From a virus (Duplodnaviria; Heunggongvirae; Uroviricota; Caudoviricetes): a stretch of 64,000 nucleotides of DNA. The DNA lies in the IMG/VR virus record IMGVR_UViG_3300044259_000172. One strand, given 5' to 3'. Numbering within the stretch: the stretch's first letter is position 1; each line of letters begins with the position of its first letter. Below are positions 1 to 32,443 of the stretch, in pieces. The notes below the pieces were generated by a model, which worked only from the letters and a program-made list of their open reading frames with translations, did not search any database and had not been told where the DNA came from. Made by a program: the position numbers and the translations under genes.

Positions 1-99
1 TCATTTATTGAATAATTTGTATAAGATCTTTCAATAGTCTTTATTTCATGGTGACCATTGACGGAAAGAATGATAGAAACAACAGCAAGAATGTTCATA

Positions 100-826: not shown

Positions 827-884
827 TTTTAATCTCCAATTTCTATAAAAGAAGACTATCATGTTTAACATTGAATGTAAACAG

Positions 885-910
885 AAAAAGAGGGATTTTA
901 TCCCTCTTTT
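885..910 (-). terminator. rho-independent terminator (aagaggga-tttta-tccctctt) overlapping stop codon of 910..2226, followed by TTTTT on minus strand
   Basis: read directly. Confidence 0.6.
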
Positions 911-2774: not shown

Positions 2775-2779
2775 TTTGA

Positions 2780-3658
2780 TTAACTTCCATACGTAAATAA
2801 GTCTGCAATAATACCTGATCTTGATTTTCTGATATCTTCTTTCGTAAGAGGATACAATTCCAGAAAGGTCAAATCTAAATTAGTAAATGCCATATTTTGA
2901 TCTTTAAGAATTTTAGGACCATATGGAGCATAATCAACATTCATATTAGTCAAAACTAATGTTTGTAATTTAGGAATTCTAGTTCCTACAAATTGTAATT
3001 CAAAAGAATCAGGAATAAAATATGATGAAAGATCTCCTCCTGACAATTCAGGATGAGATGATAATTCTAGATAATAAATTAGATTTTCTAAGGTTTTCGA
3101 TTCGGTAGAATTTCTAGGGGCAAATTCCCAAGAAAATGTAAATGTTCTAAACGACACCCCATTATAGTAAATTTCTTTGAATGGATTAGAAACTGCTCCA
3201 ACATTTTTTTGCATAAGTTTTCTTAAACCTAAGGTAGGAGCAATATCAATCAATTTATTCTTTGCAGCATCTCCAAAACTTCTACCGGCATCCGCTACTG
3301 AAGAAATATCTCCATTATTAACTCTTGCTATAGCTTGTTCAAGGAATCCTGTTTCTTGTTGAGACCAATCATTTGACCAAGAAAACGGAATATTTCTAGG
3401 AAGAGGTAAAGCAATCGAGGATGTAAGTCTACTAACAGCAGAAAATTTATTGCCTCCTGATGTATCTTCAACTGGAACGGTAGTTCCAGCAGAAGTTATA
3501 GTTGAAGATTTTGTATCATTATGCCTAGTGTTTTTAACAGTTATCTGAGTATAAGTTATATTATCAGGAACTTTTGTCCCTGATATTGTAGATGAGTTTG
3601 AATTATTTTCATCATCAGATGTTATTGTCGAACTAAGATCAAATACTTGAAGTGCCAT
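2780..3658 (-). CDS. putative virion structural protein (292 aa; S/T-rich N-terminus)
   Basis: ORF; context next to tail genes; product assignment contextual only. Confidence 0.5.
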   Translation of the reverse strand: MALQVFDLSSTITSDDENNSNSSTISGTKVPDNITYTQITVKNTRHNDTKSSTITSAGTTVPVEDTSGGNKFSAVSRLTSSIALPLPRNIPFSWSNDWSQQETGFLEQAIARVNNGDISSVADAGRSFGDAAKNKLIDIAPTLGLRKLMQKNVGAVSNPFKEIYYNGVSFRTFTFSWEFAPRNSTESKTLENLIYYLELSSHPELSGGDLSSYFIPDSFELQFVGTRIPKLQTLVLTNMNVDYAPYGPKILKDQNMAFTNLDLTFLELYPLTKEDIRKSRSGIIADLFTYGS

Positions 3659-3679
3659 TTACTATTTATAAGATTTATT

Positions 3680-3997
3680 TTAAATACCCTTTGAATTTAT
3701 AAGGTATTCATATTTTCCAATAATAGAAACTAGTTGATTTCTATATTTGAAAATCCTATCATTCAAGACCCATCTTTCATAAATTTCTTGTTCATAATCT
3801 TTTCCTTTTCTATTCAAAAGAAATGAGTCTTTTAAGAAGAGAGGAAAGTCATACTTATTGACTCCGCATCCAGTGATCATCTTTTTTCTGGAATTGATTT
3901 CTTCTTCAATCATAAGTGAATTAAAAAAATTAAAAGATTCCTTAAGAAAGGACAGAGCTAATTCCCTATTTCCTTTAATGATTTCAATTTTTTCCAT
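3680..3997 (-). CDS. hypothetical protein (105 aa)
   Basis: ORF track; overlaps upstream gene by 14 bp, typical operon packing. Confidence 0.45.
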   Translation of the reverse strand: MEKIEIIKGNRELALSFLKESFNFFNSLMIEEEINSRKKMITGCGVNKYDFPLFLKDSFLLNRKGKDYEQEIYERWVLNDRIFKYRNQLVSIIGKYEYLINSKGI

Positions 3998-4346
3998 CTA
4001 ACTTATCCTCAAAATGATCAGAAATAGCTCCAGATAAACCTAGATAAGGATATTGGAAACATTTTACTTCAATTGTATTATTCTTTTCAGAAAATCCATC
4101 GAAAATTTCCTTAAGTTGAAGACATGTTTCAATTCCTTTATAGGAAAGGACATCTGAAGACTTTACACCATCAATATTATAATTGATAAGAGCAATTACT
4201 TCGGGATGATAATTTTCAATTCTTTTTAGCTTTTCTAAGTAAAGAAGATAATAAAGTCCATTCCACAGAATGGCTAAAGTGACAATAACTATGATAAATC
4301 GATAGAATTTTTTGTTGCCTTCATTCATTTTAATTTTTAATCCCAT
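3984..4346 (-). CDS. hypothetical membrane protein (N-terminal TM helix FYRFIIVIVTLAILWNGLYYLLY)
   Basis: ORF; hydrophobic segment. Confidence 0.45.
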   Translation of the reverse strand: MGLKIKMNEGNKKFYRFIIVIVTLAILWNGLYYLLYLEKLKRIENYHPEVIALINYNIDGVKSSDVLSYKGIETCLQLKEIFDGFSEKNNTIEVKCFQYPYLGLSGAISDHFEDKLDGKN

Positions 4347-4387
4347 TTTGGTATTGATTGAAGATATCTAGTTTAGATAGGAAATAA

Positions 4388-4496
4388 TAAGAAACAAGCT
4401 TTAGCTTGATCGTGAAACGATAATCTAAAACAATTTAGATTGTTTTGTTTCATCACTTTCAGTGATCCTCAAGCTAAAGCTTGCGGTTTCTTTTAA
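4388..4496. repeat. composite palindromic element in divergent intergenic region: outer inverted repeat AAGAAACAAGCTTTAGCTTG ... CAAGCTAAAGCTTGcggTTTCTT enclosing palindromes ATCGTGAAACGAT, ATCTAAAACAATTTAGAT and ATCACTTTCAGTGAT
   Basis: read directly; first ~35 bp recur at 63560. Confidence 0.6.
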
Positions 4497-4724
4497 TATA
4501 GATTTTAAGATTTCCTTTAAAATATTATACACCGGTCCTAGAATGTTGTACACAAAATAATGACAATTATTTCATAATTTCATTCAATTTGTCTCTCAAT
4601 GTATCAATAATATCTTTCGATTCACCTTTTATAATTGCATCAAGTTTTTCATATCGAACTCTTTGACTTTGCTAAAATTATTATACAAAATAAATCTCCT
4701 AAAGTAAACACTAATAAATAAAGA

Positions 4725-8633: not shown

Positions 8634-8636
8634 AAT

Positions 8637-9915: not shown

Positions 9916-11058
9916 TTATTCCATTCTTTTTCCAAAATGGAATTTCTTGATCACCCCAAATCTCAAAGCATCCGCAGACGTATATCCCTGAAATTTTACA
10001 GTGGCTTCTGTATTAATAATTTCATCTCTAGATTCAAAAATCTTTTTCAAGAAATCTTTTGTTCCTTTAATTCCAGATTTTGAAATAGTTCCTTTAGGGG
10101 TTCTAACTTTTGCAGATTTCGCAATTCCTTCCCAATTTCCTTTTCCTTCATTGATTTCCAAAATTTTCATTTCAGCATCAATAAAGGTTTTATGCTTTAG
10201 AAGATTATCAGATCTTCCGAAGGTATAAGGAGCAAAAGGATTTCTGAACATCATTCCTTCATAACCGGCTTCAAGATATCTCTCATGAATAATCTCTGGA
10301 TCTTCAATATCGATAGAGATAGTTTCTGATTTTACCAATCTTACGGTCTTCATTGGAATATTGTATTTAGTAAATACCTCAATGAGATATGATTCTCTTT
10401 CATCGAAAGACATATCTGGATGATCATGAACAATTACGTCATAAATATGGAACTGAACTTTTTCGCGAATTTCTTCAAGTGTAGGCTCAGGAATAGAACT
10501 AATTTTCTGCTTTTTAATAAAAGAAGAAAGTTGCTCAAAATCATCCTTAAATTCATGATTGTAGAGTTCCCCATCAAGAGTGATGTTTTCTTTTTCCGTA
10601 AGATCTCTGATTTCTTCAATAATATGGTCCGCTGTATAGAAGGGTTTACCTGCCCTGGATAAAGCTGAATTATGGTCAATAACTGATCTAATTCCGTCAA
10701 GCTTAGGTTGAGTTTTCCAGAAGAACATTTTTCGTTTAATAAATTTAGCTTTATCAAACTTATTAGCCAATTGGGGTTCTTGAAAATTACGTCTTCCAGC
10801 TGATTCTGGAGTTTCTGAGTATTTTTGCTCAAGTTTTTGTCGATATATGGATTTAATTTCCCGATCGGCTTGCTCTTCAGCAGTAGTGGAATTCGACTTA
10901 CCTTCGTTCTTGGCATAAGATGTTTTCCAATCAGATTGTACAATTGCCCCACCTAGGACACCTGAGTTTGCCCGAGTCTTGAAACCTTCACGTTCCATCC
11001 ACCAAACTCTTGTATTCCCATTCGAATCAATATTATAAAGCTTCTTATAAACTTCCAA
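9916..11058 (-). CDS. gp30: ATP-dependent DNA ligase (T4 gp30-type)
   Basis: KxDGxR motif (KLDGIR) and adenylation-domain pattern. Confidence 0.85.
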   Translation of the reverse strand: MEVYKKLYNIDSNGNTRVWWMEREGFKTRANSGVLGGAIVQSDWKTSYAKNEGKSNSTTAEEQADREIKSIYRQKLEQKYSETPESAGRRNFQEPQLANKFDKAKFIKRKMFFWKTQPKLDGIRSVIDHNSALSRAGKPFYTADHIIEEIRDLTEKENITLDGELYNHEFKDDFEQLSSFIKKQKISSIPEPTLEEIREKVQFHIYDVIVHDHPDMSFDERESYLIEVFTKYNIPMKTVRLVKSETISIDIEDPEIIHERYLEAGYEGMMFRNPFAPYTFGRSDNLLKHKTFIDAEMKILEINEGKGNWEGIAKSAKVRTPKGTISKSGIKGTKDFLKKIFESRDEIINTEATVKFQGYTSADALRFGVIKKFHFGKRME

Positions 11059-11768: not shown

Positions 11769-12257
11769 TTATCTCCGCTTAAGATTTTCGATCAATTCAG
11801 AAGTAGTCTGATCCCAATCTTTAAATAGAATTCCAATACCACCAGCTTCTCTCCATGGATTGATATTTTTAATGAAATCGTCAATCAAAATATCAAAAGG
11901 ATTTTGCATAAAATTTTTCTTACACTTCCCACTATTCATAGGAAGAACAAGATAATCCTTTTCAGAAAATTCTCTACGAATTGCCTTAATTTTTTGCTTT
12001 GCGATATAATCATAATTTTGGATTGGACAAGCGGTCAAGAAGATTGGTTCAAACCCAGAATTTTCAATAAATTGAATTCCTTCAATGGCACCTTTAATCA
12101 AAGGAAGATCATAGAAAAATTCATTCTCATGAGAATGAATATAATTCCAAAGTTCAGAATCTGTCACTTTTGTAGGATGAGATCCAAAACATTCTTCGAA
12201 ATGTTTATCGAAATCAAACATTACTCCATCAAGATCTACAAAAATTCTTTTCGCCAT
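11769..12257 (-). CDS. HAD-superfamily 5'(3')-deoxyribonucleotidase
   Basis: N-terminal VDLDGVMFDF (DxDGV) motif and size typical of NT5C-like deoxynucleotidases. Confidence 0.65.
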   Translation of the reverse strand: MAKRIFVDLDGVMFDFDKHFEECFGSHPTKVTDSELWNYIHSHENEFFYDLPLIKGAIEGIQFIENSGFEPIFLTACPIQNYDYIAKQKIKAIRREFSEKDYLVLPMNSGKCKKNFMQNPFDILIDDFIKNINPWREAGGIGILFKDWDQTTSELIENLKRR

Positions 12258-15886: not shown

Positions 15887-16040
15887 CTTCTACTTCACCT
15901 AACAATTCTCTGGCAAAATCGATACCTTCCCAATTATCAACTCCTGCATTTTCAAGAGCATCCAACCAATCAAGTTGTTCCTTGATATCATCCCACTCTT
16001 CTTTTGTTAGAGTTCTTGATTTATCTTCATGTATAATCAT
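15883..16040 (-). CDS. small hypothetical protein (52 aa, MIIHEDKSRTLTKEEWDDIKEQLDWLDALENAGVDNWEGIDFARELLGEVEDD), missed by ORF track
   Basis: hand translation; stop overlaps next start in ATGA fashion. Confidence 0.45.
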
Positions 16041-16068
16041 TTCAAAATCCTCTTAATTGATAAAATAT

Positions 16069-16100
16069 TAGGGGTGATTCAATTTAAAGAATCACCCCTA
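16069..16100 (-). terminator. rho-independent terminator (12-bp stem taggggtgattc/gaatcaccccta)
   Basis: perfect inverted repeat directly after stop of RNA ligase gene, followed by T-rich run on minus strand. Confidence 0.6.
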
Positions 16101-16106
16101 AATGAG

Positions 16107-17162
16107 TTATATGCTCAATTCCAAAACTTCAGTCTGAATTCTCTTTTGAAAATAAGAGACTGCAATATTGTTTACATATTTTGCAATAGTTTTCCAATCC
16201 TTGCCATTATCTTCCATTTCAGCCAAACATTCTTTTTGGACATCTCCTGCTACCCATTTCAAGAAGCTAGAAACTTCCTTCATGGTAAGAGGAATAGTTC
16301 CATTTTCAGAAACTACATCATATCCTTGGGACAACCTGGCATCAGTAACAAGACTCTGAGCAAATTCAGCATTTTCGGACATCTTTTCAGTATTCACATT
16401 AACTGCCTTGGCAGATTTTGTCGTACGATGAGCTTCACACTTTGCCTTAAAAATATAATGCTCTGAATAGGAAAGTCGATCATAAAATACCAGACCTTCG
16501 CCAGGACCTTCAATACCAAATTTATCCTTGATATAAGGATCAACATCTCCAATTTCTTCAATCAAAGGATTAACTAGATTGAGGAAATCTTCAACATTCT
16601 TTATATTGAACAAATCAATATCGAAATCATTTTCAAAGAACCATGGAAGAATGTGAATTCGATTCTTTGAACGTTCATCGATATATTTGAACAATTCTTC
16701 CAAATTGTCACTGATTTCATTTGGTTCAATAATATAAGATCGCGTATAAGAATCTGGATACAAACTATCCTCAATAGAGAAGATAAAGAAAGACTTTTGC
16801 TCAATCATTGAACACCCAGCATTCTTTTGAATTCCAGGACCTGCCCATTCTCCATGAACAACATGACCTTCGAGGAAATGTTTTGCGTATGGGTTCAACA
16901 TTTCCCATGCAGGCTTAATTACAACTTCTACCCATTGAGCAAATCCAAAATTATCAGATTCGACACTCAAAAGTCGAGTTCGTCCCTGGGCAACAGGCCC
17001 ATTAGATGTAAAGAGAATTCCAGCATTAGTTCCATGCAATTTGATTTTTGCATTATAACTCACATTATGAGTATGAGTCTCAGGCTTAAAGATATCAAAA
17101 TGCTTCTTTACGGAACGATACATGTTCGTAAAATTGTCGATGTCCATCCATTTTTTATGCAT
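16107..17162 (-). CDS. rnl2: RNA ligase, T4 Rnl2 family
   Basis: motif I KLHGTN (KxHGxN) and HGEWAGPGIQKN matching T4 Rnl2 FGEFAGPGIQKN. Confidence 0.8.
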   Translation of the reverse strand: MHKKWMDIDNFTNMYRSVKKHFDIFKPETHTHNVSYNAKIKLHGTNAGILFTSNGPVAQGRTRLLSVESDNFGFAQWVEVVIKPAWEMLNPYAKHFLEGHVVHGEWAGPGIQKNAGCSMIEQKSFFIFSIEDSLYPDSYTRSYIIEPNEISDNLEELFKYIDERSKNRIHILPWFFENDFDIDLFNIKNVEDFLNLVNPLIEEIGDVDPYIKDKFGIEGPGEGLVFYDRLSYSEHYIFKAKCEAHRTTKSAKAVNVNTEKMSENAEFAQSLVTDARLSQGYDVVSENGTIPLTMKEVSSFLKWVAGDVQKECLAEMEDNGKDWKTIAKYVNNIAVSYFQKRIQTEVLELSI

Positions 17163-17184
17163 AAATTTTTCCTATATGTTAGAG

Positions 17185-17370
17185 TTAAATCAGCTTCTTA
17201 ATTTCAAAATTGAGATTTTCATTCAGACGAGACTTCTGATCTGAAGCTTCAAGAGCTTCATCAAAATATCCTTTATTCACCAAAAATTCACGAGAATCAT
17301 CAAGTTGAATGATGATGTCCTTTACTTTAAGAATTTCTTCCTGAAAAACAATTTCTGTATTTGCGAACAT
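17185..17370 (-). CDS. hypothetical protein (61 aa)
   Basis: ORF track. Confidence 0.4.
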   Translation of the reverse strand: MFANTEIVFQEEILKVKDIIIQLDDSREFLVNKGYFDEALEASDQKSRLNENLNFEIKKLI

Positions 17371-17423
17371 TTTAGAGACTTTCTATTTTCTCGTTGTTGA
17401 TGTATTTTTTATAAACTAGAATA

Positions 17424-18566
17424 TCAATGATGTACATACGTAGGATTTAAAAATTCAAAATAATTCTTTATATCCTCATAATTTAATTCATAATCAAATT
17501 TACACCACAATTGTTCCATTGCTTTAATCACTTCCCCTAATTCCTTTGAAGGTTTCAGATTGAAATCTTCCATAACCCTCTCAGCCTTCACAGGAGACGG
17601 ATTTTTAGGAAGATGAAAGTAACCAAACATCCTAAAATCGATAGTCCTGGCAATGTCATACATGATAGGACCATATTTAAATAAGATATAATTTGGATGC
17701 TCAGTTGTAGTTTCCAAAATATCAATCAATTCCAAAGTTTTATTTTCTACTTTAGACAATTTGAGATTTCGAATTTGATTCTTCGAAAGCCCCATAGAAT
17801 AAAGAGTCAGAACTGGATGATCTGGAAAATGAATCATTTTTTCATAATTCAACTCTTTCCCAAAAATTTCTTTAGAAACTCCTGTATAATTCATATGATG
17901 AAAAATCAATTTGTTTAATTTATTCAATTTCATCGAATTCATTTTCCAAATTTCTGAATGGATTCTTTCTTTGGAAATCATAGACAAAGATTTTGAATGT
18001 TTTGAAATGATATCCAAAACATCTTGGTCGATTTTAAAATCTTGATATTTCACACAAAATCTGAAAAATCTAAGAATGCGAAGATAATCTTCCTGGATAC
18101 GGTCTTCTGGATTTCCAATAAAGACTACCTTTTTATTCTGAAGATCTTGAATTCCTCCAAAATAATCATAGATATTTCCTTCAGAATCCATAGAAAGAGC
18201 ATTAAATGTAAAATCTCTACGAGAAGCATCAACCTCCCAATCTTCAACAAATCTCACTTCTGCGTGGCGGCCATCTGTTTCAACATCCGCTCGAAGAGTA
18301 GTGATTTCAAATGATTCATCATTAAAGGTAACAGTAACTGTTCCATGTTGAAGCCCTGTAGGAGCAAAGGACAATCCCACTGCTTCCGCAATATCCTTAA
18401 TATTGTCAGGAAAGGCTGTCGTGGCAATATCAATATCATTTACAATTGTTCCGGAAATTGCATCCCTTACACAACCTCCTACCAATCTGGCTTGATAACC
18501 AAAATGATTAATCAATTTTAAAATTGAGATCGCATTTTTGAAATTTTCAGGAATTTCGATTTTCAT
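17424..18566 (-). CDS. cca: tRNA nucleotidyltransferase (CCA-adding enzyme / poly(A) polymerase head-domain family); start revised to ATG 18566
   Basis: LVGGCVRDAISG...DIDIATTA motif (GGxVRD...DxD); RBS AGGA before ATG 18566; a hairpin lies inside the ORF-track N-terminal extension. Confidence 0.75.
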   Translation of the reverse strand: MKIEIPENFKNAISILKLINHFGYQARLVGGCVRDAISGTIVNDIDIATTAFPDNIKDIAEAVGLSFAPTGLQHGTVTVTFNDESFEITTLRADVETDGRHAEVRFVEDWEVDASRRDFTFNALSMDSEGNIYDYFGGIQDLQNKKVVFIGNPEDRIQEDYLRILRFFRFCVKYQDFKIDQDVLDIISKHSKSLSMISKERIHSEIWKMNSMKLNKLNKLIFHHMNYTGVSKEIFGKELNYEKMIHFPDHPVLTLYSMGLSKNQIRNLKLSKVENKTLELIDILETTTEHPNYILFKYGPIMYDIARTIDFRMFGYFHLPKNPSPVKAERVMEDFNLKPSKELGEVIKAMEQLWCKFDYELNYEDIKNYFEFLNPTYVHH

Positions 18567-18634
18567 GGGATATTTTCCTATTTTAGAAATGATTATGGGT
18601 TCAGTATATACTGAACCCATTTCTCTGTACATAT

Positions 18635-18853
18635 TTAAATCAAAAAATTTATGAAAGCTAATGATGTAATATATGATTGGATAATACACATTATAAAGAT
18701 TAATACGTAAATTACTTGCACTATTAGATTTTTTTCATCTAATTCAATTTGTTTCGAAACGTATTTTGACACAACATTTGCAATAGCACAGGAATAACAA
18801 ATTATATAGACGACTAAAAGGATACTTATTATATAATGAGCCGCTGTGATCAT
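18635..18853 (-). CDS. possible small hydrophobic membrane protein (72 aa)
   Basis: ORF track; two hydrophobic stretches; could be artefact. Confidence 0.3.
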   Translation of the reverse strand: MITAAHYIISILLVVYIICYSCAIANVVSKYVSKQIELDEKNLIVQVIYVLIFIMCIIQSYITSLAFINFLI

Positions 18854-18871
18854 AATTTAGTTTCCAATCTA

Positions 18872-19384
18872 TTAATAGACGTTGATCAGAGGAGTTTCGT
18901 AAGACTTGAAAAAATTCCGGATTGTAATATCCTCAATCTTTTCGAGAGTGATATATTGACCATCAAACTCTGTCATTTCATAACGAGAATTACGTTCGAA
19001 TTTAACTTCAGAATTTTTCTTCGGAATTGGAAGAAAAACTGTTCCCTTTGAATCTCGTCCAATTTTCTGATCCTTAACAGAAGTATCCAAAATGATCTTT
19101 CCATCAATTGTTTCATATTTCAAAAACTTGATTTCATCAAAATATGGGTGAGCAGCAATATTTGCATGAATGAAGAAGGATTTTTTAGAAGATTGATCCT
19201 CTTTGTTTGCGGGATCCATCAATTCGAAAAACTGATGAAGCTTTTTCATATTCGAGGCATTATGATCCATCTTAATGAATTCATCTTCACCTTGAATTGT
19301 GATAGAACCACCATCAAAAATCTTTACTTCATAACCATGAGACTCATAAACCCGAAGTTTGCCATTTTCGCGAACCAAATTCAT
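18872..19384 (-). CDS. hypothetical protein (170 aa)
   Basis: ORF; good promoter upstream. Confidence 0.5.
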   Translation of the reverse strand: MNLVRENGKLRVYESHGYEVKIFDGGSITIQGEDEFIKMDHNASNMKKLHQFFELMDPANKEDQSSKKSFFIHANIAAHPYFDEIKFLKYETIDGKIILDTSVKDQKIGRDSKGTVFLPIPKKNSEVKFERNSRYEMTEFDGQYITLEKIEDITIRNFFKSYETPLINVY

Positions 19385-19430
19385 TTTATATTCTCCTAAT
19401 TTAGAGATGTTTGATTTGTTTTGATAAATT

Positions 19431-19460
19431 CAATATAATCAAATCTACGAGAATGTAAAC
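19431..19460 (-). promoter_or_regulatory. T4-early-like promoter (GTTTACA-17-TATATT)
   Basis: minus-sense gatGTTTACAttctcgtagatttgatTATATTgaatttatc ... aggagaatataaaATG. Confidence 0.5.
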
Positions 19461-19467
19461 ATCAAAA

Positions 19468-19929
19468 TTAGATTATTTCCCAATTTCCTGTAGATTCATT
19501 TTTAGAAATTTTCTGAGTATAAATGTCGCTAAAACAAAATTGTTCGAAAATTTTTGGGTATTGAGAATCGAATGGATTTGTTTTTATATTTTCAATTTCG
19601 ATTTCAATTTGCTTTTTGGAATGTAAAAGATTTTTCAATTGAGTTTTTCTAGATGAAATATTAACTCCAATTAAATTCAATTGGTCTTTATCCATTTGGG
19701 ATAAGATATTAATAATATCCTCAGTCTGAGAAATTTCTTTAGAAGTAGAATTTAATCTTTCAATTAAATTCGCAATAGTATTATCAATGAATTTTTGATT
19801 TTCTTGATTTACGAATGCTTCAACTTCTTCAATAGAAGCATTCGTAAAAACTGTGGAATAATCATTATCAATGTCCCAACAAGGATATCTTAAAGATTCA
19901 TTCCAGTATTCTTTCCAAATTTGATACAT
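19468..19929 (-). CDS. hypothetical protein (153 aa)
   Basis: ORF track. Confidence 0.5.
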   Translation of the reverse strand: MYQIWKEYWNESLRYPCWDIDNDYSTVFTNASIEEVEAFVNQENQKFIDNTIANLIERLNSTSKEISQTEDIINILSQMDKDQLNLIGVNISSRKTQLKNLLHSKKQIEIEIENIKTNPFDSQYPKIFEQFCFSDIYTQKISKNESTGNWEII

Positions 19930-19931
19930 TA

Positions 19932-20330
19932 TTAAAATGTCTCAAATTTTACAGGAGGTAATTCAATTGAGGCCGTCCCAATAGCTCCAAAAATCTGGAA
20001 TTTCTTTGTAGGAGACTTTGAAAGATTTTCCTTAAGAAAAGTATCCATTTCATCCTTGTGCATAACTTTCAAAAATTTTCCATCAAGAAAAATTGCTACA
20101 CTATCCTTAAAACTTGGCTGAGGCCCTGCTGATTCTACTACCACGAAGTTTTCTCCTTTAACTTTTACCTTAAACCCTACTGAATAAAATCTAGACGGAT
20201 TTGAGACGACCTTCAAATCCAAAATTCTTCCGTCCAAAGAAACATTCTCAATCTCAAGAATTGTATCTCTATTGATTGAACTATAAGAACTGAAATTCTT
20301 TTGGAGTTTTACCCTATCACCAACATACAT
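19932..20330 (-). CDS. hypothetical protein (132 aa)
   Basis: ORF track. Confidence 0.5.
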   Translation of the reverse strand: MYVGDRVKLQKNFSSYSSINRDTILEIENVSLDGRILDLKVVSNPSRFYSVGFKVKVKGENFVVVESAGPQPSFKDSVAIFLDGKFLKVMHKDEMDTFLKENLSKSPTKKFQIFGAIGTASIELPPVKFETF

Positions 20331-20334
20331 TTTT

Positions 20335-20592
20335 CTAAACCTTTATCTTTTCATATATTTCTATGAGTTCATTTTTGCCAATTCTATCTGAAATTTCACT
20401 ATATTCAAGATAAGAAGCAATTTGAATTTTAATATCTCTCAAAAGATTATTTGCTTCAATTAATTGATCTTCTAAATCTCTAGCCTGAACTGACTTTCCA
20501 TCCCTATTAATATACAGATAATTATTTCGAAATTTTAATTTTTCAATTTCATTTTTATAATATTCTATATCATTAGGATTCAAATTTGACAT
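20335..20592 (-). CDS. hypothetical coiled-coil protein (85 aa)
   Basis: ORF track. Confidence 0.45.
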   Translation of the reverse strand: MSNLNPNDIEYYKNEIEKLKFRNNYLYINRDGKSVQARDLEDQLIEANNLLRDIKIQIASYLEYSEISDRIGKNELIEIYEKIKV

Positions 20593-20620
20593 TTAAAAAT
20601 CTTTCAAAAATGGAGCCTTA

Positions 20621-20926
20621 TTAGGCTCCTTGCTTTTGACCTCGATTATTCGAGAAATTGTAACCTTCTCGACCATTGGATACAAAAAATCCATTTGCCC
20701 AACGAGCATTTGAATTATACTGTAGATGATCGACAAACTTCATAAAGTCGATCCAATCCAATTGGTTGTCATCTTCATCATAGATGACAAGCTTATTATC
20801 CTGAATAAACTTCTTCCATGTTTCCACCTCATAAATCTTTCCATGGGTATAGAATACAAAGCGATAATTCTTTGCATAAAAACCGATGTAGATCTTTGTT
20901 TCATTGAAGTTAACGTGAAAACGCAT
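20621..20926 (-). CDS. hypothetical protein (101 aa)
   Basis: ORF track. Confidence 0.45.
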   Translation of the reverse strand: MRFHVNFNETKIYIGFYAKNYRFVFYTHGKIYEVETWKKFIQDNKLVIYDEDDNQLDWIDFMKFVDHLQYNSNARWANGFFVSNGREGYNFSNNRGQKQGA

Positions 20927-20974
20927 ATTTTTAATCCTTATATTTATGTGAAAAACTATTTTAGGGGGTAAATT

Positions 20975-21250
20975 TTACTTAGAAAGCTTACGATTTTCTG
21001 CGGTATTAATAGCCCGCTTATAAGCATCCTTGATTGTTTCTTTTTCTTCAATTTCTGATTCAGGTTTAGCTCGGTCCTTGATAATCTGGCGAATAATTCC
21101 AGTATCATATCCCTTATTCTTAATTTCCTGATAAACTTCCTTGATATCATCAGAAAAGGTCTTCATCTCTTCAGTAAGAGATTCAATCCTTTGTACAAAT
21201 CCAAAAAGATCTGAATCATCAATAGAGGTTACTGTAACATTAGAGTTCAT
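20975..21250 (-). CDS. gapR: GapR-like DUF2312/UPF0335 nucleoid-associated DNA-binding protein
   Basis: LFGFVQRIESLTEEMKTFSDDIKEVYQEIKNKGYDTGIIRQIIKDRAK closely matches DUF2312 consensus (IERIERLeEEkk..sdDIKeVYaEAKgnGfD.k.lR.ii..RK). Confidence 0.65.
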   Translation of the reverse strand: MNSNVTVTSIDDSDLFGFVQRIESLTEEMKTFSDDIKEVYQEIKNKGYDTGIIRQIIKDRAKPESEIEEKETIKDAYKRAINTAENRKLSK

Positions 21251-21767
21251 GTACTTTATTTTCCTTTTTTACAAGATTTGAAATGTATCCAGAAACTTCT
21301 GGAATTTGGTTATACATTTTTTGGATTACATCGAATGGAATAGGAGGACCCATTCCGGCTTTAAATCTTTCCTCTACCCTACGATTAAGTTCATCAATAG
21401 GAGTATTAAAGAAAGTTTTGACAAAAATATCCAAATTTTTATTTTGGAGAAATTTATCAATTTGAGATTTCAAAATCTTAAGATTAAGATTTGTATCAGA
21501 AATGACCAAAATATGGTCATAATCATTTTTAATGAAATCATCAATGGCTTCGTCACAAATTTTTGTGACGACTTTTTCTTTATCAAACTTATAAAATCCT
21601 GCATTATATTGATTGTTTGTCAAAAGATTTCGAACATCATCTCGGTTCACATTAATAAGAAGTGAACCTTTTGAGCAAAGTTTATTGACCCAGGTCGTCT
21701 TACCAGAAGCAGGAGGGCCAATAGTAAAAATAATGCTCTTTTTCATTTTCTTAACCTTTTTAATCAT
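21240..21767 (-). CDS. pnk: polynucleotide 5'-kinase, T4 Pnk kinase domain only (no phosphatase domain)
   Basis: SIIFTIGPPASGKTTW...INVNRDDVR...VISDTNLN aligns with T4 Pnk ILTIGCPGSGKSTW...NINRDDYR...VIISDTNLN; 175 aa only. Confidence 0.75.
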   Translation of the reverse strand: MIKKVKKMKKSIIFTIGPPASGKTTWVNKLCSKGSLLINVNRDDVRNLLTNNQYNAGFYKFDKEKVVTKICDEAIDDFIKNDYDHILVISDTNLNLKILKSQIDKFLQNKNLDIFVKTFFNTPIDELNRRVEERFKAGMGPPIPFDVIQKMYNQIPEVSGYISNLVKKENKVHEL

Positions 21768-22020
21768 TATCTACCATATGATTGAACACCATAATTGCTG
21801 CCTTCAAATTAGGAGCGGTCGAAATAGTAATAATAGGTTCGAATGAACCAGGAGATTTCTTATAATCAAAATGTTTGATAAAATATTCAATTTTAGAAGT
21901 TTGAAAAATTGCCTTCGAATAAAGACGAATTGCATTATGCTTATTTGTCACTGATTCTGCAATATTTGTAATTTCAACCTTATCAGCAAAGTCATCGAAA
22001 TAAATCTTAGACATTTTCAA
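21760..22020 (-). CDS. hypothetical protein (86 aa)
   Basis: ORF track. Confidence 0.45.
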   Translation of the reverse strand: MKMSKIYFDDFADKVEITNIAESVTNKHNAIRLYSKAIFQTSKIEYFIKHFDYKKSPGSFEPIITISTAPNLKAAIMVFNHMVDND

Positions 22021-27607: not shown

Positions 27608-27613
27608 AATATT

Positions 27614-27689
27614 GGTGTGCCCTGTCAGGCTTGAACTGACGACCCTCTGCTTAAAAGGCAGATGCTCTAACCAACTGAGCTAAGGGCAC
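27614..27689 (-). tRNA. tRNA-Lys (anticodon UUU), CCA encoded
   Basis: minus-sense GTGCCCTtaGCTCAGTTGGTTAGAGCatCTGCCTTTTAAGCAGAgggtcGTCAGTTCAAGCCTGACAGGGCACaCCA: 7-bp acceptor, D-arm, anticodon loop CUUUUAA, T-arm all canonical. Confidence 0.8.
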
Positions 27690-28844: not shown

Positions 28845-29145
28845 TTTCTTCCTTTTCCAAAAATTTAAATTGAGAATAATCTCTATACATTCTAGTTTCA
28901 GTATCAGAATTTAGAAAATATTTCCCATTCTTGGAATAAACCATACAAAGAAATAGAATATTATAAGAAGAACTCATATCTTTATGGATATCAATTGATT
29001 CAATTTTAGCTTGATATCCCGAATATTTTCCCTTTGTAATTTCTACAATTTTGTGGAGATATTTCTTATTAAGCTCATTCTGTCTATTTGACAAATAAAC
29101 CTGAAGCTTTTTCCTATAATCTAAAAATTCTTCAATTTCATTCAA
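28831..29145 (-). CDS. hypothetical protein (104 aa)
   Basis: ORF track. Confidence 0.45.
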   Translation of the reverse strand: MNEIEEFLDYRKKLQVYLSNRQNELNKKYLHKIVEITKGKYSGYQAKIESIDIHKDMSSSYNILFLCMVYSKNGKYFLNSDTETRMYRDYSQFKFLEKEENDTN

Positions 29146-29524
29146 AATCTTTATTCCTTTTCATCAACAAATATTGACTAAGATATTTTTCAATATTTTC
29201 TTTTCCTACAGGATTCTGAGAATGAACATAAAATTTAAAATCATCTGCCAAGATATTAAAATCAATATCAACATCTACCAAAGATTTTGCAATAGATAAT
29301 CCATTTTCAGAATCTTGTCCTAAATCATGATCAAAAGAAATATAAGAAATCTTTTCAAAATCTCCTATAAGATCGAAATATGATTTCCATAGTGTCTTGA
29401 TTATTGGATTTTGAGACTTAATAAATGTATTGAACAAATAAAGGGCATCAGAAGAATTTCTAATTATAACATCAAATTTATCATTTTCAGATGGATCACG
29501 TTCATCATCAATAAAAATTTTCAT
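29138..29524 (-). CDS. hypothetical protein (128 aa)
   Basis: ORF track. Confidence 0.45.
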   Translation of the reverse strand: MKIFIDDERDPSENDKFDVIIRNSSDALYLFNTFIKSQNPIIKTLWKSYFDLIGDFEKISYISFDHDLGQDSENGLSIAKSLVDVDIDFNILADDFKFYVHSQNPVGKENIEKYLSQYLLMKRNKDFE

Positions 29525-30140: not shown

Positions 30141-30662
30141 TTAAAGGTATGAGAAATCTGATGTCAATTCTTTTGCATCGGGACCAAATGCAAACATTCC
30201 TGTTGTAACATCATAAGCCTTGAAAATCAAGGATCCATCCTTTAGATGGTATTCAGGATCAATGACTTCTTTTGCGATACAAGCCAATTGATCAGAAAGA
30301 GCTATCGCTTCTTTAATCTTTGCATAAGATGCCTTTTTGACATAAACTGTACCGAAACCTTGAGGAGTTTCTTTTTTCCACTTGAGATATTCGGAAGAAA
30401 GAAATTGATTAATCCCCGAAGAAATGAATTTTTCAAATGTTTCATGAAAAACAGAAGTTGCGTGTGAAGCCTGGGCAGCTGCCCTGCCTTTAGTCATAGA
30501 CAAAGGCAAATCGTCTCGAACAACAATGTATAGACGACTCAATTTTTCATCTGAAGATACCAACATTTCATTTAATTGAAACTTTTCAGATGATTTTTGG
30601 GGAGGAATTCCTCCCCAAAAACTTTTTTCGATAAATGTATTTGCTTTCATATTCATATTCAT
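30141..30662 (-). CDS. peptidyl-tRNA hydrolase PTH2-family protein
   Basis: YIVVRDDLPLSMTKGRAAAQASHATS matches the PTH2 core (vvRtDL.M.kGKiaAQcsHAa). Confidence 0.55.
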   Translation of the reverse strand: MNMNMKANTFIEKSFWGGIPPQKSSEKFQLNEMLVSSDEKLSRLYIVVRDDLPLSMTKGRAAAQASHATSVFHETFEKFISSGINQFLSSEYLKWKKETPQGFGTVYVKKASYAKIKEAIALSDQLACIAKEVIDPEYHLKDGSLIFKAYDVTTGMFAFGPDAKELTSDFSYL

Positions 30663-31552: not shown

Positions 31553-32443
31553 TTACTTCTTTAGAGAATCATTTTCTTTCAAAAGATCATCAGAATTTAG
31601 AAGCATTCCATTGCTTGTTCCTTGAACTTTTGGCATCTTACCATCCCAACGTTCAATTGCCTTATATTTTACAAGCTCAGGGGTAATAGATTCTGACAAA
31701 ATCTTATTTGCCTTTGCTTGGGCTTCTGCTTCAAGAAGAACAGATTCAGCTCGACCTCGCGCATCTTCAATTGCCTTTTGAGCATCAGCCTTTGCAGATT
31801 CTACTTCTTGAGTCTTTTGCAAAGTTTTCTGGGATGCATTGATCTTTGCATTAATCATATTAACAACTTCATCAGGAAGTCTAAATGCTCCTGTCCAATA
31901 AAGTCGTTCTACCTTGATGCCAATAGGATCAAATTGAGACCTAACTCGAGCTTCTACATTCTTAATGAGTTGTTCCTTGCCAGGACCATAAATTTCATCT
32001 ACTCTCATTTTAGAAGCTTCAGAAACGAGAGCATCCCGAACTGCATTTCGAATTACAATCTGATTGAGTTCTTCCGTTCCCTTACGATATCGCTGGAAGA
32101 TATTGGAAATCTTTGAAGGATCAAAAGAATATGCAATACCAATATCAGAATTTACCTTCAGTCCATCTCGGTCTTGGAACGTAATAGACTCATCTTCTGG
32201 ACTCGAAGAATCCTTGATATTATCCCAGGTATAATTTTGGGTGAATGTAGGAAATAGGAACAAATCTTCATTCCACCCGATAAAATATCGACCTGGACCT
32301 AGAATTTGATTATCAACCCCCTTAGAATCTCCTAGCAAATATACTTTTACCCCAACTTGACCAGCTGGAACCTTTGAGCAAGAAGCCATAGATAGGCAAC
32401 CAAGAAGCAGAGCTCCAATAGTAATAATTTTCTTAATACTCAT
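31553..32443 (-). CDS. SPFH/band-7 (prohibitin/HflKC-like) domain lipoprotein
   Basis: signal peptide and lipobox MSIKKIITIGALLLGCLSMASC; band-7 core with C-terminal EAQAKA-type coiled coil. Confidence 0.75.
   Translation of the reverse strand: MSIKKIITIGALLLGCLSMASCSKVPAGQVGVKVYLLGDSKGVDNQILGPGRYFIGWNEDLFLFPTFTQNYTWDNIKDSSSPEDESITFQDRDGLKVNSDIGIAYSFDPSKISNIFQRYRKGTEELNQIVIRNAVRDALVSEASKMRVDEIYGPGKEQLIKNVEARVRSQFDPIGIKVERLYWTGAFRLPDEVVNMINAKINASQKTLQKTQEVESAKADAQKAIEDARGRAESVLLEAEAQAKANKILSESITPELVKYKAIERWDGKMPKVQGTSNGMLLNSDDLLKENDSLKK

What the first reader, a model, noticed from the sequence alone, without database searches (positions are those of the whole stretch)
16107..21767. Dispersed tRNA-repair toolkit: Rnl2-type RNA ligase, CCA-adding enzyme and a Pnk kinase domain lacking the 3'-phosphatase half
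T4 uses Pnk (kinase plus HAD phosphatase) and Rnl1 to heal tRNA-Lys cut by the PrrC anticodon nuclease. This phage has an Rnl2-family ligase, a full CCA-adding enzyme and a 175-aa Pnk containing only the kinase domain. A 2',3'-cyclic phosphate or 3'-phosphate end must still be healed. The window offers two separate calcineurin-like metallophosphoesterases (41236..41745, 44980..45687) and an HD-domain protein. The design is reminiscent of bacterial Pnkp/Hen1 systems, where a metallophosphoesterase supplies the phosphatase. The phage-encoded tRNA-Lys(UUU) at 27614..27689 is exactly the classic anticodon-nuclease target.
Basis: partly seen in the sequence, partly recalled or inferred. Interest (0 to 1): 0.7.

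Follow-up and report, generated by a model that had tools for sequence, protein, structure and literature searches.

The report
Phage tRNA-repair kit, split Pnk
This uncultivated T4-like phage does carry an RNA ligase, a CCA-adding enzyme and a kinase-only Pnk, but the "missing" 3'-phosphatase is a separate gene just outside the window, so this is an ordinary phage RNA-repair kit with its Pnk split into two genes.

Summary
The three genes are real. The ligase at 16107..17162(-) is an Rnl2-family RNA ligase, aligning end to end with T4 Rnl2 (hhalign 99.5%, E 5e-23). The gene at 17424..18632(-) is a class II CCA-adding enzyme. The gene at 21240..21767(-) is a 175-aa protein that matches only the T4 Pnk kinase domain, with the catalytic residues kept.

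A Logan contig, 100% identical to window 1..4515, continues past the left edge. About 1.25 kb outside the window it encodes a 153-aa standalone phosphatase of the Pnk type (PF25109, E 3e-34). It aligns with T4 Pnk residues 158-301, carries DxDGT, and keeps all ten active-site residues checked. The kinase and this phosphatase are each on record on a contig of 154,347 bp.

The two metallophosphoesterases are therefore not needed. They sit among nucleotide-metabolism genes and do not travel with repair genes elsewhere. Split Pnk is common: it occurs in many viral contigs and in the cultured Rhodobacter phage RcXuper. In one syntenic relative, the HD hydrolase, phosphatase, CCA enzyme and Rnl2 ligase form a single 9-kb cluster. 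The toolkit matches what has been described for jumbo phages.

Verdict: a new member of a known kind, of modest interest.

The parts
21240..21767 (-). Pnk 5'-kinase domain as a standalone 175-aa protein, the kinase half of a split T4-type Pnkp. Its partner, the 153-aa HAD 3'-phosphatase, lies OUTSIDE the window at locus L003:5769-6230, which is 1253-1714 bases beyond window position 1 on the - strand. An HD hydrolase at L003:4666-5268 lies 150-752 bases beyond position 1.
   Evidence: Kinase: it aligns with T4 Pnk 2-148 (E 4e-13) and Pnkp1 13-146, and matches phrog_505 positions 2-145 of 295. From the alignment, K23/T24 correspond to Lys15/Ser16, D43 to Asp35, R46 to Arg38, SDTNLN to 84-89, and R134 to Arg126; the roles of Asp35, Lys15 and Arg126 are given in PMC3592404. 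The closest homologs (37-39% identity; 160-194 aa) are also kinase-only, and two of them were seen in the same primase-kinase-GapR order. Out-of-window HAD: L003 is 100% identical to window 4515..1 over 4,515 bp. PF25109 E 3e-34 over profile positions 2-143 of 143. It aligns with T4 Pnk 158-301 at E 1.6e-15. D9/D11/T13/R20/S66/R68/D107/K111/D129/D130 correspond to T4 D165/D167/T169/R176/S211/R213/D254/K258/D277/D278. The identical protein is on record on a 154,347-bp contig, as is the kinase.
17424..18632 (-). Class II CCA-adding enzyme (tRNA nucleotidyltransferase), 402 aa; the ORF extends to a GTG at 18689
   Evidence: PF01743 E 1.5e-30 and PF12627. PDB: human TRNT1 E 1e-56, bacterial CCA-adding enzymes 1e-37 and 1e-32, against poly(A) polymerases 1e-20 and A-adding enzymes 1e-14 to 1e-17. 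The best NCBIfam match is NF009814, CCA tRNA nucleotidyltransferase, E 3e-63, below its equivalog cut-off. Motifs GGCVRD...DIDI, RRDFTFNAL and EDYLRILR are visible in the translation.
16107..17162 (-). Rnl2-family ATP-dependent RNA ligase, 351 aa
   Evidence: Profile-profile alignment of an 8-sequence family against a 34-sequence T4 Rnl2 family: probability 99.5%, E 5e-23, residues 1-341 against 1-332 of 334, including the C-terminal domain. Motif I is KLHGTN (K41), III is GEWAG, IIIa is FFIFSI, IV is EGLVF and V is FKAKCE. T4 Rnl2 is the only significant PDB hit. TIGR02307 matches at E 2e-9.
18872..19384 (-). Conserved 170-aa protein of unknown function directly upstream of the CCA gene
   Evidence: 37% identical to the 173-aa gene that occupies the same position, between HAD and CCA, in relative L005. 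phrog_18621 E 4e-7, no Pfam hit. Its membership in the pathway is inferred from synteny only.
27613..27689 (-). tRNA-Lys(UUU), 77 nt, with an encoded CCA end
   Evidence: ARAGORN. Its anticodon loop CUUUUAA is identical to that of E. coli lysT. It is the only tRNA in the window and in the flanks I could read.
29138..29524 (-). cREC_REC (cyclic-phosphate-processing Receiver domain) protein, 128 aa; a predicted accessory 2',3'-cyclic phosphate processing enzyme
   Evidence: PF20274 E 7e-19, above the cut-off. Iyer et al. 2021 predicted this family to process 2',3'-cyclic ends and found it linked to RNA ligase genes (PMC7824862). The function is predicted, not shown.
30141..30662 (-). PTH2-type peptidyl-tRNA hydrolase, 173 aa (ribosome rescue arm of the toolkit)
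   Evidence: PF01981 E 9e-8, above the cut-off. PTH2 is listed as part of the phage RNA-repair and ribosome-rescue repertoire in PMC7824862.
13871..14017 (-). ArfA-like alternative ribosome-rescue factor, 48 aa
   Evidence: PF03889 E 2e-7, above the cut-off; also in the precomputed list.

Best explanation
The phage encodes an RNA (most likely tRNA) end-healing and sealing pathway homologous to the T4 Pnkp and RNA ligase system. Its bifunctional Pnkp is unbundled into two genes: a 175-aa 5'-kinase (21240..21767) and a 153-aa DxDGT HAD 3'-phosphatase, about 1.25 kb outside the window and 22.5 kb from the kinase gene. The proposed mechanism follows; every step is inferred from homology. [quoted passage not shown] The HAD protein removes the cyclic or 3' phosphate. 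The kinase phosphorylates the 5'-OH. The Rnl2-family ligase (16107..17162) seals the nick. The CCA-adding enzyme (17424..18632) rebuilds damaged tRNA 3' ends. PTH2, ArfA, the cREC protein and the phage's own tRNA-Lys form the wider translation-rescue set. The metallophosphoesterases are not required for this pathway.
For: Shown by tools: the kinase domain has its catalytic residues intact. The standalone HAD_PNKP keeps all ten T4 active-site residues checked. It is on the same genome. Rnl2 membership holds end to end. The nucleotidyltransferase is closest to true CCA-adding enzymes. Linkage evidence: in the syntenic relative L005, HD, HAD, one unmatched ORF, two conserved ORFs, CCA and Rnl2 lie within one 9-kb cluster, and their homologs are the genes dispersed in this phage. 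In L007 the order is kinase, HD-HAD, Rnl1. Among 68 viral loci with a standalone HAD_PNKP, 19 have a separate ~130-200-aa kinase gene within 10 kb, 21 have an Rnl1-type ligase and 7 have a CCA-like enzyme. Cultured phage RcXuper has a 165-aa kinase next to Rnl1, a 213-aa HAD gene 3 kb away, and an Rnl2-like ligase 36% identical to ours. The short kinase form is stable: 68 of the best 150 representatives are 130-199 aa, and two of the three closest are syntenic. From the literature: the T4 HAD domain alone heals RNA>p to RNA-OH, and the tetramer uses kinase-kinase and phosphatase-phosphatase interfaces (PMC3592404). In Pnkp1 the two modules barely touch (PMC4411300). Both T4 domains have been solved as separate polypeptides (1LY1, 5UJ0). 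The same toolkit is described for jumbo phages (PMC7824862).
Against: No activity has been measured. T4 uses Rnl1, not Rnl2, for tRNA-Lys repair, and the natural substrate of Rnl2 is unknown (PMC3400036). In this phage the genes are spread over about 23 kb and are not one operon. The contig link for the HAD gene rests on a 4.5-kb identical overlap plus matching contig lengths, not on reading the 154-kb contig itself. About 83 kb of the genome was not seen. The host and any cognate nuclease are unknown. The sample of viral loci was selected with standalone HAD queries, so the proportions are biased.
Confidence: 0.72

Rival explanations
1. One reading: the kinase-only Pnk works with one of the calcineurin-like metallophosphoesterases (44980..45687 or 41236..41745) as the 2',3'-phosphoesterase, in the manner of bacterial Pnkp/Hen1.
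For: The 235-aa protein belongs to the lambda-phosphatase/ApaH/PrpE/CthPnkp-phosphatase group: 1G5B E 2e-10, CthPnkp phosphatase 4J6O E 4e-9, and the TIGR04075 bacter_Pnkp phosphatase segment E 7e-16. It also matches phrog_8238 at positions 177-387 of 737. That PHROG is annotated as RNA ligase, and L007's kinase matches its positions 2-139. Lambda phosphatase itself has 2',3'-cyclic phosphodiesterase activity (PMC2190708 abstract). Iyer et al. note calcineurin-like phosphatases in this role in a few jumbo phages.
Against: A canonical HAD_PNKP with an intact active site is present, so nothing is missing. The 235-aa protein scores equally well against PrpE, ApaH and PrpA/B, and far better against NinI-like phosphatases (phrog_246, E 5e-55). 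It overlaps an RNase_T-like exonuclease gene and sits among ThyX, dCMP deaminase, NUDIX and ThyA. Homologs of the 235-aa protein appear in 0 of 160 viral loci built around HAD_PNKP or Rnl2-like genes, and homologs of the 169-aa protein in 4 of 160. No Hen1 was found in the parts of the genome I could read. The 169-aa protein resembles only an uncharacterised Aquifex protein.
Confidence: 0.06
2. The kinase and phosphatase are not partners in tRNA repair. They would instead act separately, for example on DNA ends during replication or recombination (as eukaryotic PNKP does) or on other RNA substrates, and the ligase and CCA enzyme would have unrelated roles.
For: T4 Pnkp acts on DNA ends in vitro (PMC3592404). 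The kinase gene lies between a primase-like gene and a GapR-like DNA-binding gene, in conserved synteny. A DNA ligase is encoded at 9916..11058. The two halves are 22.5 kb apart. 42 of 68 standalone HAD loci show no kinase or ligase within 10 kb.
Against: The HAD, kinase, RNA ligase and CCA genes cluster repeatedly in relatives and in many viral contigs, including directly adjacent KIN|HAD gene pairs next to Rnl1 (L016, L017) and the L005 cluster. The window also holds other translation-rescue genes.
Confidence: 0.14
3. The 175-aa gene is a decaying remnant of a once-fused Pnk and is not functional.
For: In the word-indexed search, the nearest hits apart from the identical protein itself were all ~291-307-aa two-domain proteins.
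Against: The exhaustive search finds closer kinase-only relatives of 160-194 aa at 37-39% identity, two of them seen in conserved synteny. All catalytic residues are kept. The ORF ends cleanly at the domain boundary, and there is no phosphatase-like sequence downstream in any frame.
Confidence: 0.03
4. On the tRNA-Lys(UUU): it is there for codon supply in an AT-rich phage, not as a nuclease-resistant replacement for a cleaved host tRNA.
For: AAA is the third most used codon (63.5 per 1000; 69% of Lys codons) across 39 phage genes at 30.5% GC. The 7-nt anticodon loop is identical to that of the E. coli PrrC substrate tRNA-Lys, so it carries no loop mutation of the kind proposed for nuclease evasion in PMC10264068 (title and abstract).
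Against: A phage copy can replenish a depleted pool even without being resistant. The stem differs from the E. coli one. The modification state is unknown. The tRNA lies 1.5 kb from the cREC/DUF4031/PTH2 genes.
Confidence: 0.55

Closest known systems
Bacteriophage T4 Pnkp (pseT) with RNA ligases Rnl1 and Rnl2
   Same: The kinase is homologous to T4 Pnkp residues 2-148 and the phosphatase to residues 158-301, both with conserved catalytic residues. The ligase is homologous to T4 Rnl2 over its whole length. The phage is a distant T4-like myovirus (DNA polymerase 35% identical; gp46/47, UvsX, clamp loader).
   Different: The two Pnkp domains are separate genes 22.5 kb apart, not one 301-aa polypeptide. 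No Rnl1 was seen in the parts of the genome I could read. A CCA-adding enzyme, PTH2, ArfA and cREC are added.
Phage RNA-repair and ribosome-rescue toolkit described for jumbo phages (Iyer, Anantharaman, Krishnan, Burroughs, Aravind 2021, PMC7824862)
   Same: The parts list is the same: phage tRNAs, Rnl1/Rnl2 ligases, polynucleotide kinase, HAD phosphatase of the 'PKN-HAD' family, cRec, CCA-adding enzyme, PTH2 and an HD alarmone phosphodiesterase.
   Different: This genome is about 154 kb, so it is not a jumbo phage. That paper says PKN-HAD is 'usually fused' to the kinase; here, and in many viral contigs, it stands alone.
Rhodobacter phage RcXuper (OP186293) and metagenomic relatives L005 and L007
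   Same: They have the same split: RcXuper has a 165-aa kinase, a 213-aa HAD and a 333-aa Rnl2-like ligase 36% identical to ours. L005 shares backbone synteny and has HD-HAD, CCA and Rnl2 (43% identical) in one cluster.
   Different: RcXuper and L007 also have, or have instead, an Rnl1-type ligase next to the kinase or HAD gene. In the present phage the HD-HAD block is about 16 kb away from the CCA-Rnl2 block. No publication on RcXuper was found.
Bacterial Pnkp1-Rnl-Hen1 (Capnocytophaga gingivalis, PDB 4XRP) and Pnkp/Hen1 (Clostridium thermocellum)
   Same: Pnkp1 matches both our kinase (E 1.4e-8) and our HAD (E 4.7e-13). In that system the ligase is also a separate protein, and the kinase and phosphatase modules barely touch (PMC4411300).
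   Different: No Hen1 methyltransferase was found, and the ligase is of Rnl2 type.
Naturally unbundled eukaryotic healing enzymes (Mucorales stand-alone RNA 5'-OH kinase; amphioxus BfRNL plus kinase/CPD)
   Same: These are precedents in which the healing and sealing modules of a normally fused enzyme work as separate polypeptides (PMC11571804; PMC3400036).
   Different: They belong to a different lineage and use a different 3'-healing chemistry (2H cyclic phosphodiesterase, leaving a 2'-phosphate).

Membership tests
T4-type polynucleotide kinase-phosphatase (Pnkp) | N-terminal P-loop 5'-kinase domain with Lys15/Ser16, the Asp35 general base, Arg38 and Arg126 | tested here: met
   K23/T24, D43, R46 and R134 in the alignment to 1LY1/1LTQ, E 4e-13; roles of the residues from PMC3592404.
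T4-type polynucleotide kinase-phosphatase (Pnkp) | DxDxT acylphosphatase (HAD) 3'-phosphatase domain with Asp165, Asp167, Ser211, Lys258 and Asp278 | tested here: met
   Met, but on a separate 153-aa protein encoded outside the window (L003:5769-6230): PF25109 E 3e-34, T4 158-301 E 1.6e-15, all ten checked residues conserved.
T4-type polynucleotide kinase-phosphatase (Pnkp) | Both domains on one ~300-aa polypeptide | tested here: not met
   The kinase ORF ends at 175 aa and a GapR gene follows it. There is no HAD_PNKP in the window. The HAD ORF starts at the domain boundary (MKFKAVIFDLDGT), 22.5 kb away.
T4-type polynucleotide kinase-phosphatase (Pnkp) | 5'-kinase and 3'/2',3'-cyclic phosphatase activity on RNA ends | not testable with these tools
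   This needs enzyme assays.
Rnl2 family of RNA ligases | N-terminal nucleotidyltransferase domain with motifs I (KxHGxN), III, IIIa, IV and V | tested here: met
   KLHGTN, GEWAG, FFIFSI, EGLVF and FKAK align with the T4 Rnl2 motifs and are invariant in the 3-sequence family alignment.
Rnl2 family of RNA ligases | Rnl2-specific C-terminal domain following motif V | tested here: met
   The profile-profile alignment runs through to T4 Rnl2 residue 332 of 334 (probability 99.5%, E 5e-23). This is profile evidence only, with no structure.
Rnl2 family of RNA ligases | Score above the curated NCBIfam equivalog cut-off (TIGR02307) | tested here: not met
   37 bits against a cut-off of 197, N-terminal part only. 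It is a distant member.
Class II CCA-adding enzymes | Pol-beta head domain with motifs A-D and greater similarity to CCA-adding enzymes than to poly(A) polymerases or A-adding enzymes | tested here: met
   PF01743 E 1.5e-30. TRNT1 1e-56 against PAP 1e-20 and A-adding enzymes 1e-14. NF009814 E 3e-63, but below its cut-off (214 against 290 bits).
Class II CCA-adding enzymes | Addition of the complete CCA, as opposed to CC only or A only | not testable with these tools
   Specificity cannot be read reliably from the sequence here.
Bacterial Pnkp/Hen1 RNA repair system | Binuclear metallophosphoesterase as the 2',3'-phosphatase, fused or genetically linked to the kinase and ligase | tested here: not met
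   The MPE genes lie 20-24 kb from the kinase, among nucleotide-metabolism genes. They do not co-occur with kinase, HAD or ligase genes in 160 viral loci. Family assignment of the 235-aa protein is ambiguous: PrpE, Pnkp, PrpA and ApaH all score similarly and all fall below their cut-offs.
Bacterial Pnkp/Hen1 RNA repair system | Hen1 2'-O-methyltransferase partner | tested here: not met
   No such domain appears in the Pfam lists for the window and its flanks; the only methyltransferase is a D12-class DNA methylase. The remaining ~83 kb of the genome was not examined.
RelA/SpoT-type small alarmone hydrolases (for the HD neighbour of the HAD gene) | HD-domain hydrolase with the H..PY..H..V and HDxxED signature, related to Rel/SpoT/Mesh1 hydrolase domains | tested here: inconclusive
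   The signature is present. The top 11 PDB profile hits are all RSH hydrolases, but with modest E-values (3e-5 to 0.1). Pfam HD is below its cut-off. The AlphaFold model was too poor to use (pLDDT 47).

The most novel reading that the evidence does not exclude
The HD hydrolase of RelA/SpoT type and the standalone Pnk-type 3'-phosphatase are adjacent in three related phage genomes, with overlapping gene ends in two of them. In relative L005 the pair lies 1.3 kb from the CCA-adding enzyme. They could form a dedicated tRNA 3'-end repair unit aimed at toxSAS-type defences (CapRel or FaRel2-like enzymes that pyrophosphorylate the tRNA CCA end). The HD enzyme would remove the pyrophosphate, the HAD enzyme would clear any remaining 3'/2'-phosphate, and the CCA enzyme would rebuild damaged ends. 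In this reading the phosphatase half of Pnk was separated from the kinase because it serves a second, kinase-independent pathway.
Probability: 0.1. Interest if true: 0.65.

Novelty: new member of a known kind. Interest (0 to 1): 0.3.

Why it matters
The result corrects a window-edge artefact. The apparent absence of the phosphatase came from the 64-kb window boundary, not from the biology. It also documents that T4-type Pnkp is often encoded as two separate genes in uncultivated phages and in at least one cultured phage, where both halves are annotated simply as 'polynucleotide kinase'. Annotation pipelines and surveys of phage counter-defence should take this into account. The L005 cluster (HD, HAD, CCA, Rnl2) links an Rnl2-family ligase to healing enzymes and a tRNA 3'-end enzyme by gene neighbourhood. 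That is a small comparative hint about the still unknown natural role of Rnl2.

Tried and rejected
- Megablast of 16000..22000 against phage genomes found nothing, so there is no close cultured relative.
- Two exact-pattern scans of metagenome contigs, one from the HAD gene and one from the kinase gene inside the window, both found nothing. The collection lacks this contig, so the scans could neither confirm nor deny the linkage.
- The look-up of encoding contigs returned only Logan contigs, never the 154-kb JGI contig. Linkage therefore rests on the 4,515-bp identical overlap and on matching longest-contig lengths.
- The AlphaFold2 model of the HD protein, built from a 2-sequence alignment, gave pLDDT 47, so I ran no fold search.
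- The first hhalign of a 3-sequence ligase profile against a single T4 Rnl2 sequence aligned only the N-terminal half. Deeper profiles resolved this.
- My 'RNL2' HMM hits in L020 and L026 are really ligases with an N-terminal extra domain and a KxDG motif (Rnl5-like layout), not Rnl2.
- 72 of 80 viral loci found with the ligase query hold short or only partly matching ORFs (149-344 aa, most about 180 aa) that match only the nucleotidyltransferase core. I left them out of the family profile.
- The kinase of L007 is not detectably similar to ours by BLASTP. It is recognised only by HMM and PHROG.
- BLAST of the phage tRNA against E. coli hit tRNA-Arg, not tRNA-Lys. I read lysT directly instead.
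- Streptomyces phage Persimmon, the top cultured hit for the HAD query, has an ordinary fused 301-aa Pnk.
- The search for further HD-HAD pairs found only the contig I already knew about.
- The NT5C-like HAD at 11769..12257 was considered as an alternative phosphatase. It was rejected because it is a 5'(3')-deoxyribonucleotidase type (phrog_2643 E 1e-40).
They are now described under the kinase part and in the text.

Full report
**Setting.** The window has 30.5% G+C and almost all of its genes are on the minus strand. It comes from an uncultivated, distant T4-like myovirus. Its DNA polymerase is about 35% identical to those of cyanophage and Rhizobium T4-like phages. UvsX, a gp41-like helicase, gp46/gp47, the clamp loader and the clamp are all present. 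Megablast finds no close relative among 50,697 phage records.

**The observation.**
- *Ligase, 16107..17162(-).* It matches PF09414 and, over its full length, phrog_548. T4 Rnl2 is its only significant PDB relative. I built an 8-sequence family from this phage, relative L005, Rhodobacter phage RcXuper and five viral contigs. I compared it with a 34-sequence T4 Rnl2 family. The alignment ran from residue 1 to 341 against 1 to 332 of 334 (probability 99.5%, E 5e-23), with motifs I, III, IIIa, IV and V in register and the C-terminal domain covered. It is a distant but real Rnl2-family member, well below the NCBIfam equivalog cut-off.
- *Nucleotidyltransferase, 17424..18632(-).* It is much closer to true CCA-adding enzymes (TRNT1 E 1e-56; bacterial enzymes 1e-37 and 1e-32) than to poly(A) polymerases (1e-20) or A-adding enzymes.
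- *Kinase, 21240..21767(-).* It aligns with T4 Pnk residues 2-148 (E 4e-13) and with the kinase half of Pnkp1, and with nothing else at E below 0.1. The P-loop lysine, the Asp35 general base, Arg38, the SDTNLN segment and Arg126 all have counterparts. The ORF stops at the domain boundary and a GapR-like gene follows it.
- *Inside the window.* tblastn with 19 two-domain Pnk proteins, and an HMM scan, found no Pnk phosphatase domain in any frame.

I looked up contigs that carry window proteins. A Logan contig (L003, 11,092 bp) is identical to window 4515..1 over 4,515 bp with no mismatch, and it continues 6.5 kb past the left edge of the window. About 1.25 kb beyond window position 1, on the same strand as the other genes, lies a 153-aa ORF (L003:5769-6230) that begins MKFKAVIFDLDGTL.
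- It matches PF25109 (HAD_PNKP) over the whole profile (E 3e-34).
- It aligns end to end with T4 Pnk residues 158-301 and with the crystallised T4 phosphatase domain 5UJ0.
- It keeps the counterparts of Asp165, Asp167, Thr169, Arg176, Ser211, Arg213, Asp254, Lys258, Asp277 and Asp278.
- The identical protein is on record on a JGI contig of 154,347 bp. The kinase and the neighbouring HD protein have the same longest-contig length.

In T4 this domain alone converts 2',3'-cyclic phosphate ends to 3'-OH (PMC3592404), so no other phosphoesterase is required.

**Is a split Pnk odd?** It is not.
- An exhaustive HMMER search with the kinase gave 1,063 hits at E up to 1e-3. Of the best 150 representatives, 68 are 130-199 aa and 69 are 260-345 aa. 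The three closest (37-39% identity) are all short, and the two I could look up sit in the same primase-like, kinase, GapR order as here.
- The closest relatives of the HAD protein are nearly all 145-175-aa standalone proteins, several of them on contigs of 150-163 kb.
- I retrieved 80 viral contigs with a profile of standalone HADs, which makes it a biased sample. Of these, 68 have a standalone HAD ORF, 7 the classical kinase-HAD fusion and 5 a longer form. Among the 68, 19 have a separate kinase gene within 10 kb, 21 an Rnl1-type ligase and 7 a CCA-like enzyme. The sample includes directly adjacent but separate KIN|HAD genes next to Rnl1.
- The cultured Rhodobacter phage RcXuper has a 165-aa kinase next to an Rnl1-type ligase, a 213-aa HAD gene 3 kb away and an Rnl2-like ligase 36% identical to ours. 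Both short genes are annotated 'polynucleotide kinase'.
- Separate function is plausible from published structures. The T4 tetramer is held by kinase-kinase and phosphatase-phosphatase interfaces. In Pnkp1 the two modules barely touch. Both T4 domains have been solved as separate polypeptides.

**Are the dispersed genes functionally linked?** The best evidence comes from relative L005, a 153-kb ENA contig. It shares the backbone gene order of the window, with homologs of 40500..41000 through 31553..32443 in the same order. In L005, five genes whose homologs are dispersed here lie in one stretch of about 9 kb, with an unmatched 93-aa ORF after the phosphatase and about 4 kb of small ORFs before the ligase. 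In order, they are the HD hydrolase, the HAD phosphatase, a homolog of the 118-aa gene that lies downstream of our HAD, a homolog of our 170-aa gene at 18872..19384, the CCA enzyme and the Rnl2 ligase (43% identical to ours). In the present phage about 16 kb separates the HD-HAD block from the CCA-Rnl2 block. That stretch includes a plus-strand island with a TnsA-like endonuclease. A second relative, L007, has the order kinase, HD-HAD, Rnl1.

The window also encodes a cREC_REC protein (E 7e-19), PTH2, an ArfA-like peptide and the tRNA-Lys. This parts list is essentially the phage RNA-repair and ribosome-rescue toolkit that Iyer et al. described for jumbo phages. They note that the PKN-HAD phosphatase is 'usually fused' to the kinase (PMC7824862).

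**The metallophosphoesterases.**
- The 235-aa protein belongs to the lambda-phosphatase/ApaH/PrpE/CthPnkp-phosphatase group. On sequence alone, a 2',3'-phosphoesterase activity cannot be excluded.
- It scores far better against NinI-like phosphatases (phrog_246, E 5e-55). It overlaps an RNase_T-like exonuclease gene and sits among ThyX, dCMP deaminase, NUDIX and ThyA. Homologs never appear beside HAD, kinase or ligase genes in the 160 viral loci I examined.
- The 169-aa protein resembles only an uncharacterised Aquifex protein.
- A third Metallophos protein, at 60111..61205, is the gp47/Mre11 partner of gp46/Rad50.
- No Hen1 was found.

**The tRNA-Lys.** It is 77 nt long with an encoded CCA end. 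Its 7-nt anticodon loop, CUUUUAA, is identical to that of E. coli lysT, the PrrC substrate. AAA is the third commonest codon in 39 phage genes (63.5 per 1000), so codon supply is a sufficient explanation. Pool replenishment after nuclease attack is not excluded.

**Mechanism and confidence.**
- *Shown:* domain identities, conserved catalytic residues, presence on the same genome, and recurrent gene linkage.
- *Inferred:* the HAD protein heals 3' ends, the kinase heals 5' ends, Rnl2 seals, CCA rebuilds 3' termini, and the target is tRNA damaged by host defence nucleases.
- I put 0.72 on this pathway reading, 0.06 on the metallophosphoesterase model, about 0.14 on unrelated or DNA-directed roles, and 0.03 on a decaying remnant.

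**A lead noticed on the way.** The HD protein next to the HAD gene (L003:4666-5268) carries the HEGQ..PYWLHP.RV and HDVIEDT signatures. In a profile search its top 11 PDB matches are all RelA/SpoT-type hydrolase domains: the (p)ppApp hydrolase 7SMG at E 3e-5, Rel, and Mesh1. Such hydrolases can remove the pyrophosphate that toxSAS defence enzymes place on the tRNA CCA end, and the authors themselves compare that activity with the T4 Pnk 3'-phosphatase (bioRxiv 10.1101/2021.04.30.441581). The HD-HAD pairing is limited to three related genomes. Nine more distant HD homologs in viral contigs have no repair genes nearby. I rate a dedicated tRNA 3'-end repair unit at about 0.1.

**Verdict.** The genes are as described, and the 'missing phosphatase' is an artefact of the window edge. 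This is a new member of a known kind of phage RNA-repair toolkit, notable only for its unbundled Pnkp. Interest 0.3.

Noticed in passing
L003:4666-5268 and L003:5769-6230 (about 150-1714 bases beyond window position 1); L005:9397-10510; L007:9435-10459: A RelA/SpoT-hydrolase-like HD protein sits immediately upstream of the standalone Pnk-type HAD phosphatase in three related phage genomes. The gene ends overlap in two of them; here the two genes are separated by two small ORFs. This may be a tRNA 3'-end de-(pyro)phosphorylation pair.
   Followed up: partly
window 29138-29754 and 30141-30662 (- strand): A cREC_REC protein (E 7e-19), DUF4031 (E 1e-8) and a PTH2 peptidyl-tRNA hydrolase lie 1.5-3 kb from the tRNA-Lys gene.
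   Followed up: partly
window 13871-14017 (- strand): A 48-aa ORF matches ArfA, the alternative ribosome-rescue factor (PF03889, E 2e-7, above the cut-off). I did not check how common ArfA is in phages.
   Followed up: no
window 20975-21250 (- strand); L009:1645-1911; L010:2589-2858: A GapR-like DNA-binding gene directly follows the kinase gene in this phage and in two metagenomic relatives, giving the order primase-like, kinase, GapR. From my own knowledge, GapR is typical of alphaproteobacteria. The closest tRNA and ligase matches are to Agrobacterium, Sulfitobacter and Rhodobacter phages, so an alphaproteobacterial host with low G+C is plausible.
   Followed up: partly
window 4725-9526 (+ strand): This is the only sizeable plus-strand block in the window. 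It holds a TnsA-like endonuclease (PF08722, E 4e-22), a 1145-aa protein and two smaller ORFs. It lies within the ~16 kb that separates the CCA-Rnl2 block from the HD-HAD block, which are contiguous in relative L005, so it may be an insertion. L007 also has a TnsA-like gene, next to baseplate genes.
   Followed up: no
window 55248-56150 (+ strand): A 300-aa protein with six NUMOD3 motifs (E 9e-56), probably a homing endonuclease, lies on the opposite strand directly beside the DNA polymerase gene.
   Followed up: no
window 11769-12257 (- strand): A second HAD-superfamily protein is of the NT5C 5'(3')-deoxyribonucleotidase type (phrog_2643, E 1e-40), not the Pnk type. It could be mistaken for the missing phosphatase.
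   Followed up: yes
window 39709-40503 and 45736-46653 (- strand): Both a ThyA-type thymidylate synthase (PF00303) and a ThyX-like protein (a weak Thy1 hit) appear to be encoded in the same phage.
   Followed up: no
L020:5816-10462 and L021; L026 and L027: Some viral contigs hold very compact repair clusters: an Rnl5-like ligase (N-terminal extra domain, KxDG motif), Rnl1, a 162-aa kinase, a 271-aa CCA-like nucleotidyltransferase and a 155-aa HAD, all as separate genes within 5 kb.
   Followed up: partly
L047:3771-4763; also L050, L051, L059, L067, L090: In these phage proteins the Pnk-type HAD domain comes first and a kinase-like or unidentified domain second. From my own knowledge, this is the order seen in mammalian PNKP. 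Each lies directly upstream of an Rnl1-type ligase.
   Followed up: no
L096-L172 (72 of 80 loci): Many viral contigs, most of them 20-60 kb, encode short or partly matching ORFs (149-344 aa, most about 180 aa) that match only the nucleotidyltransferase core (motif I to IIIa region) of the Rnl2-like ligase, usually with no kinase or phosphatase gene nearby.
   Followed up: no
window 15879-16040 (- strand): A 53-aa ORF immediately downstream of the ligase gene carries a precomputed hit to PF25708 (Phage_T7_Gp5_9).
   Followed up: no
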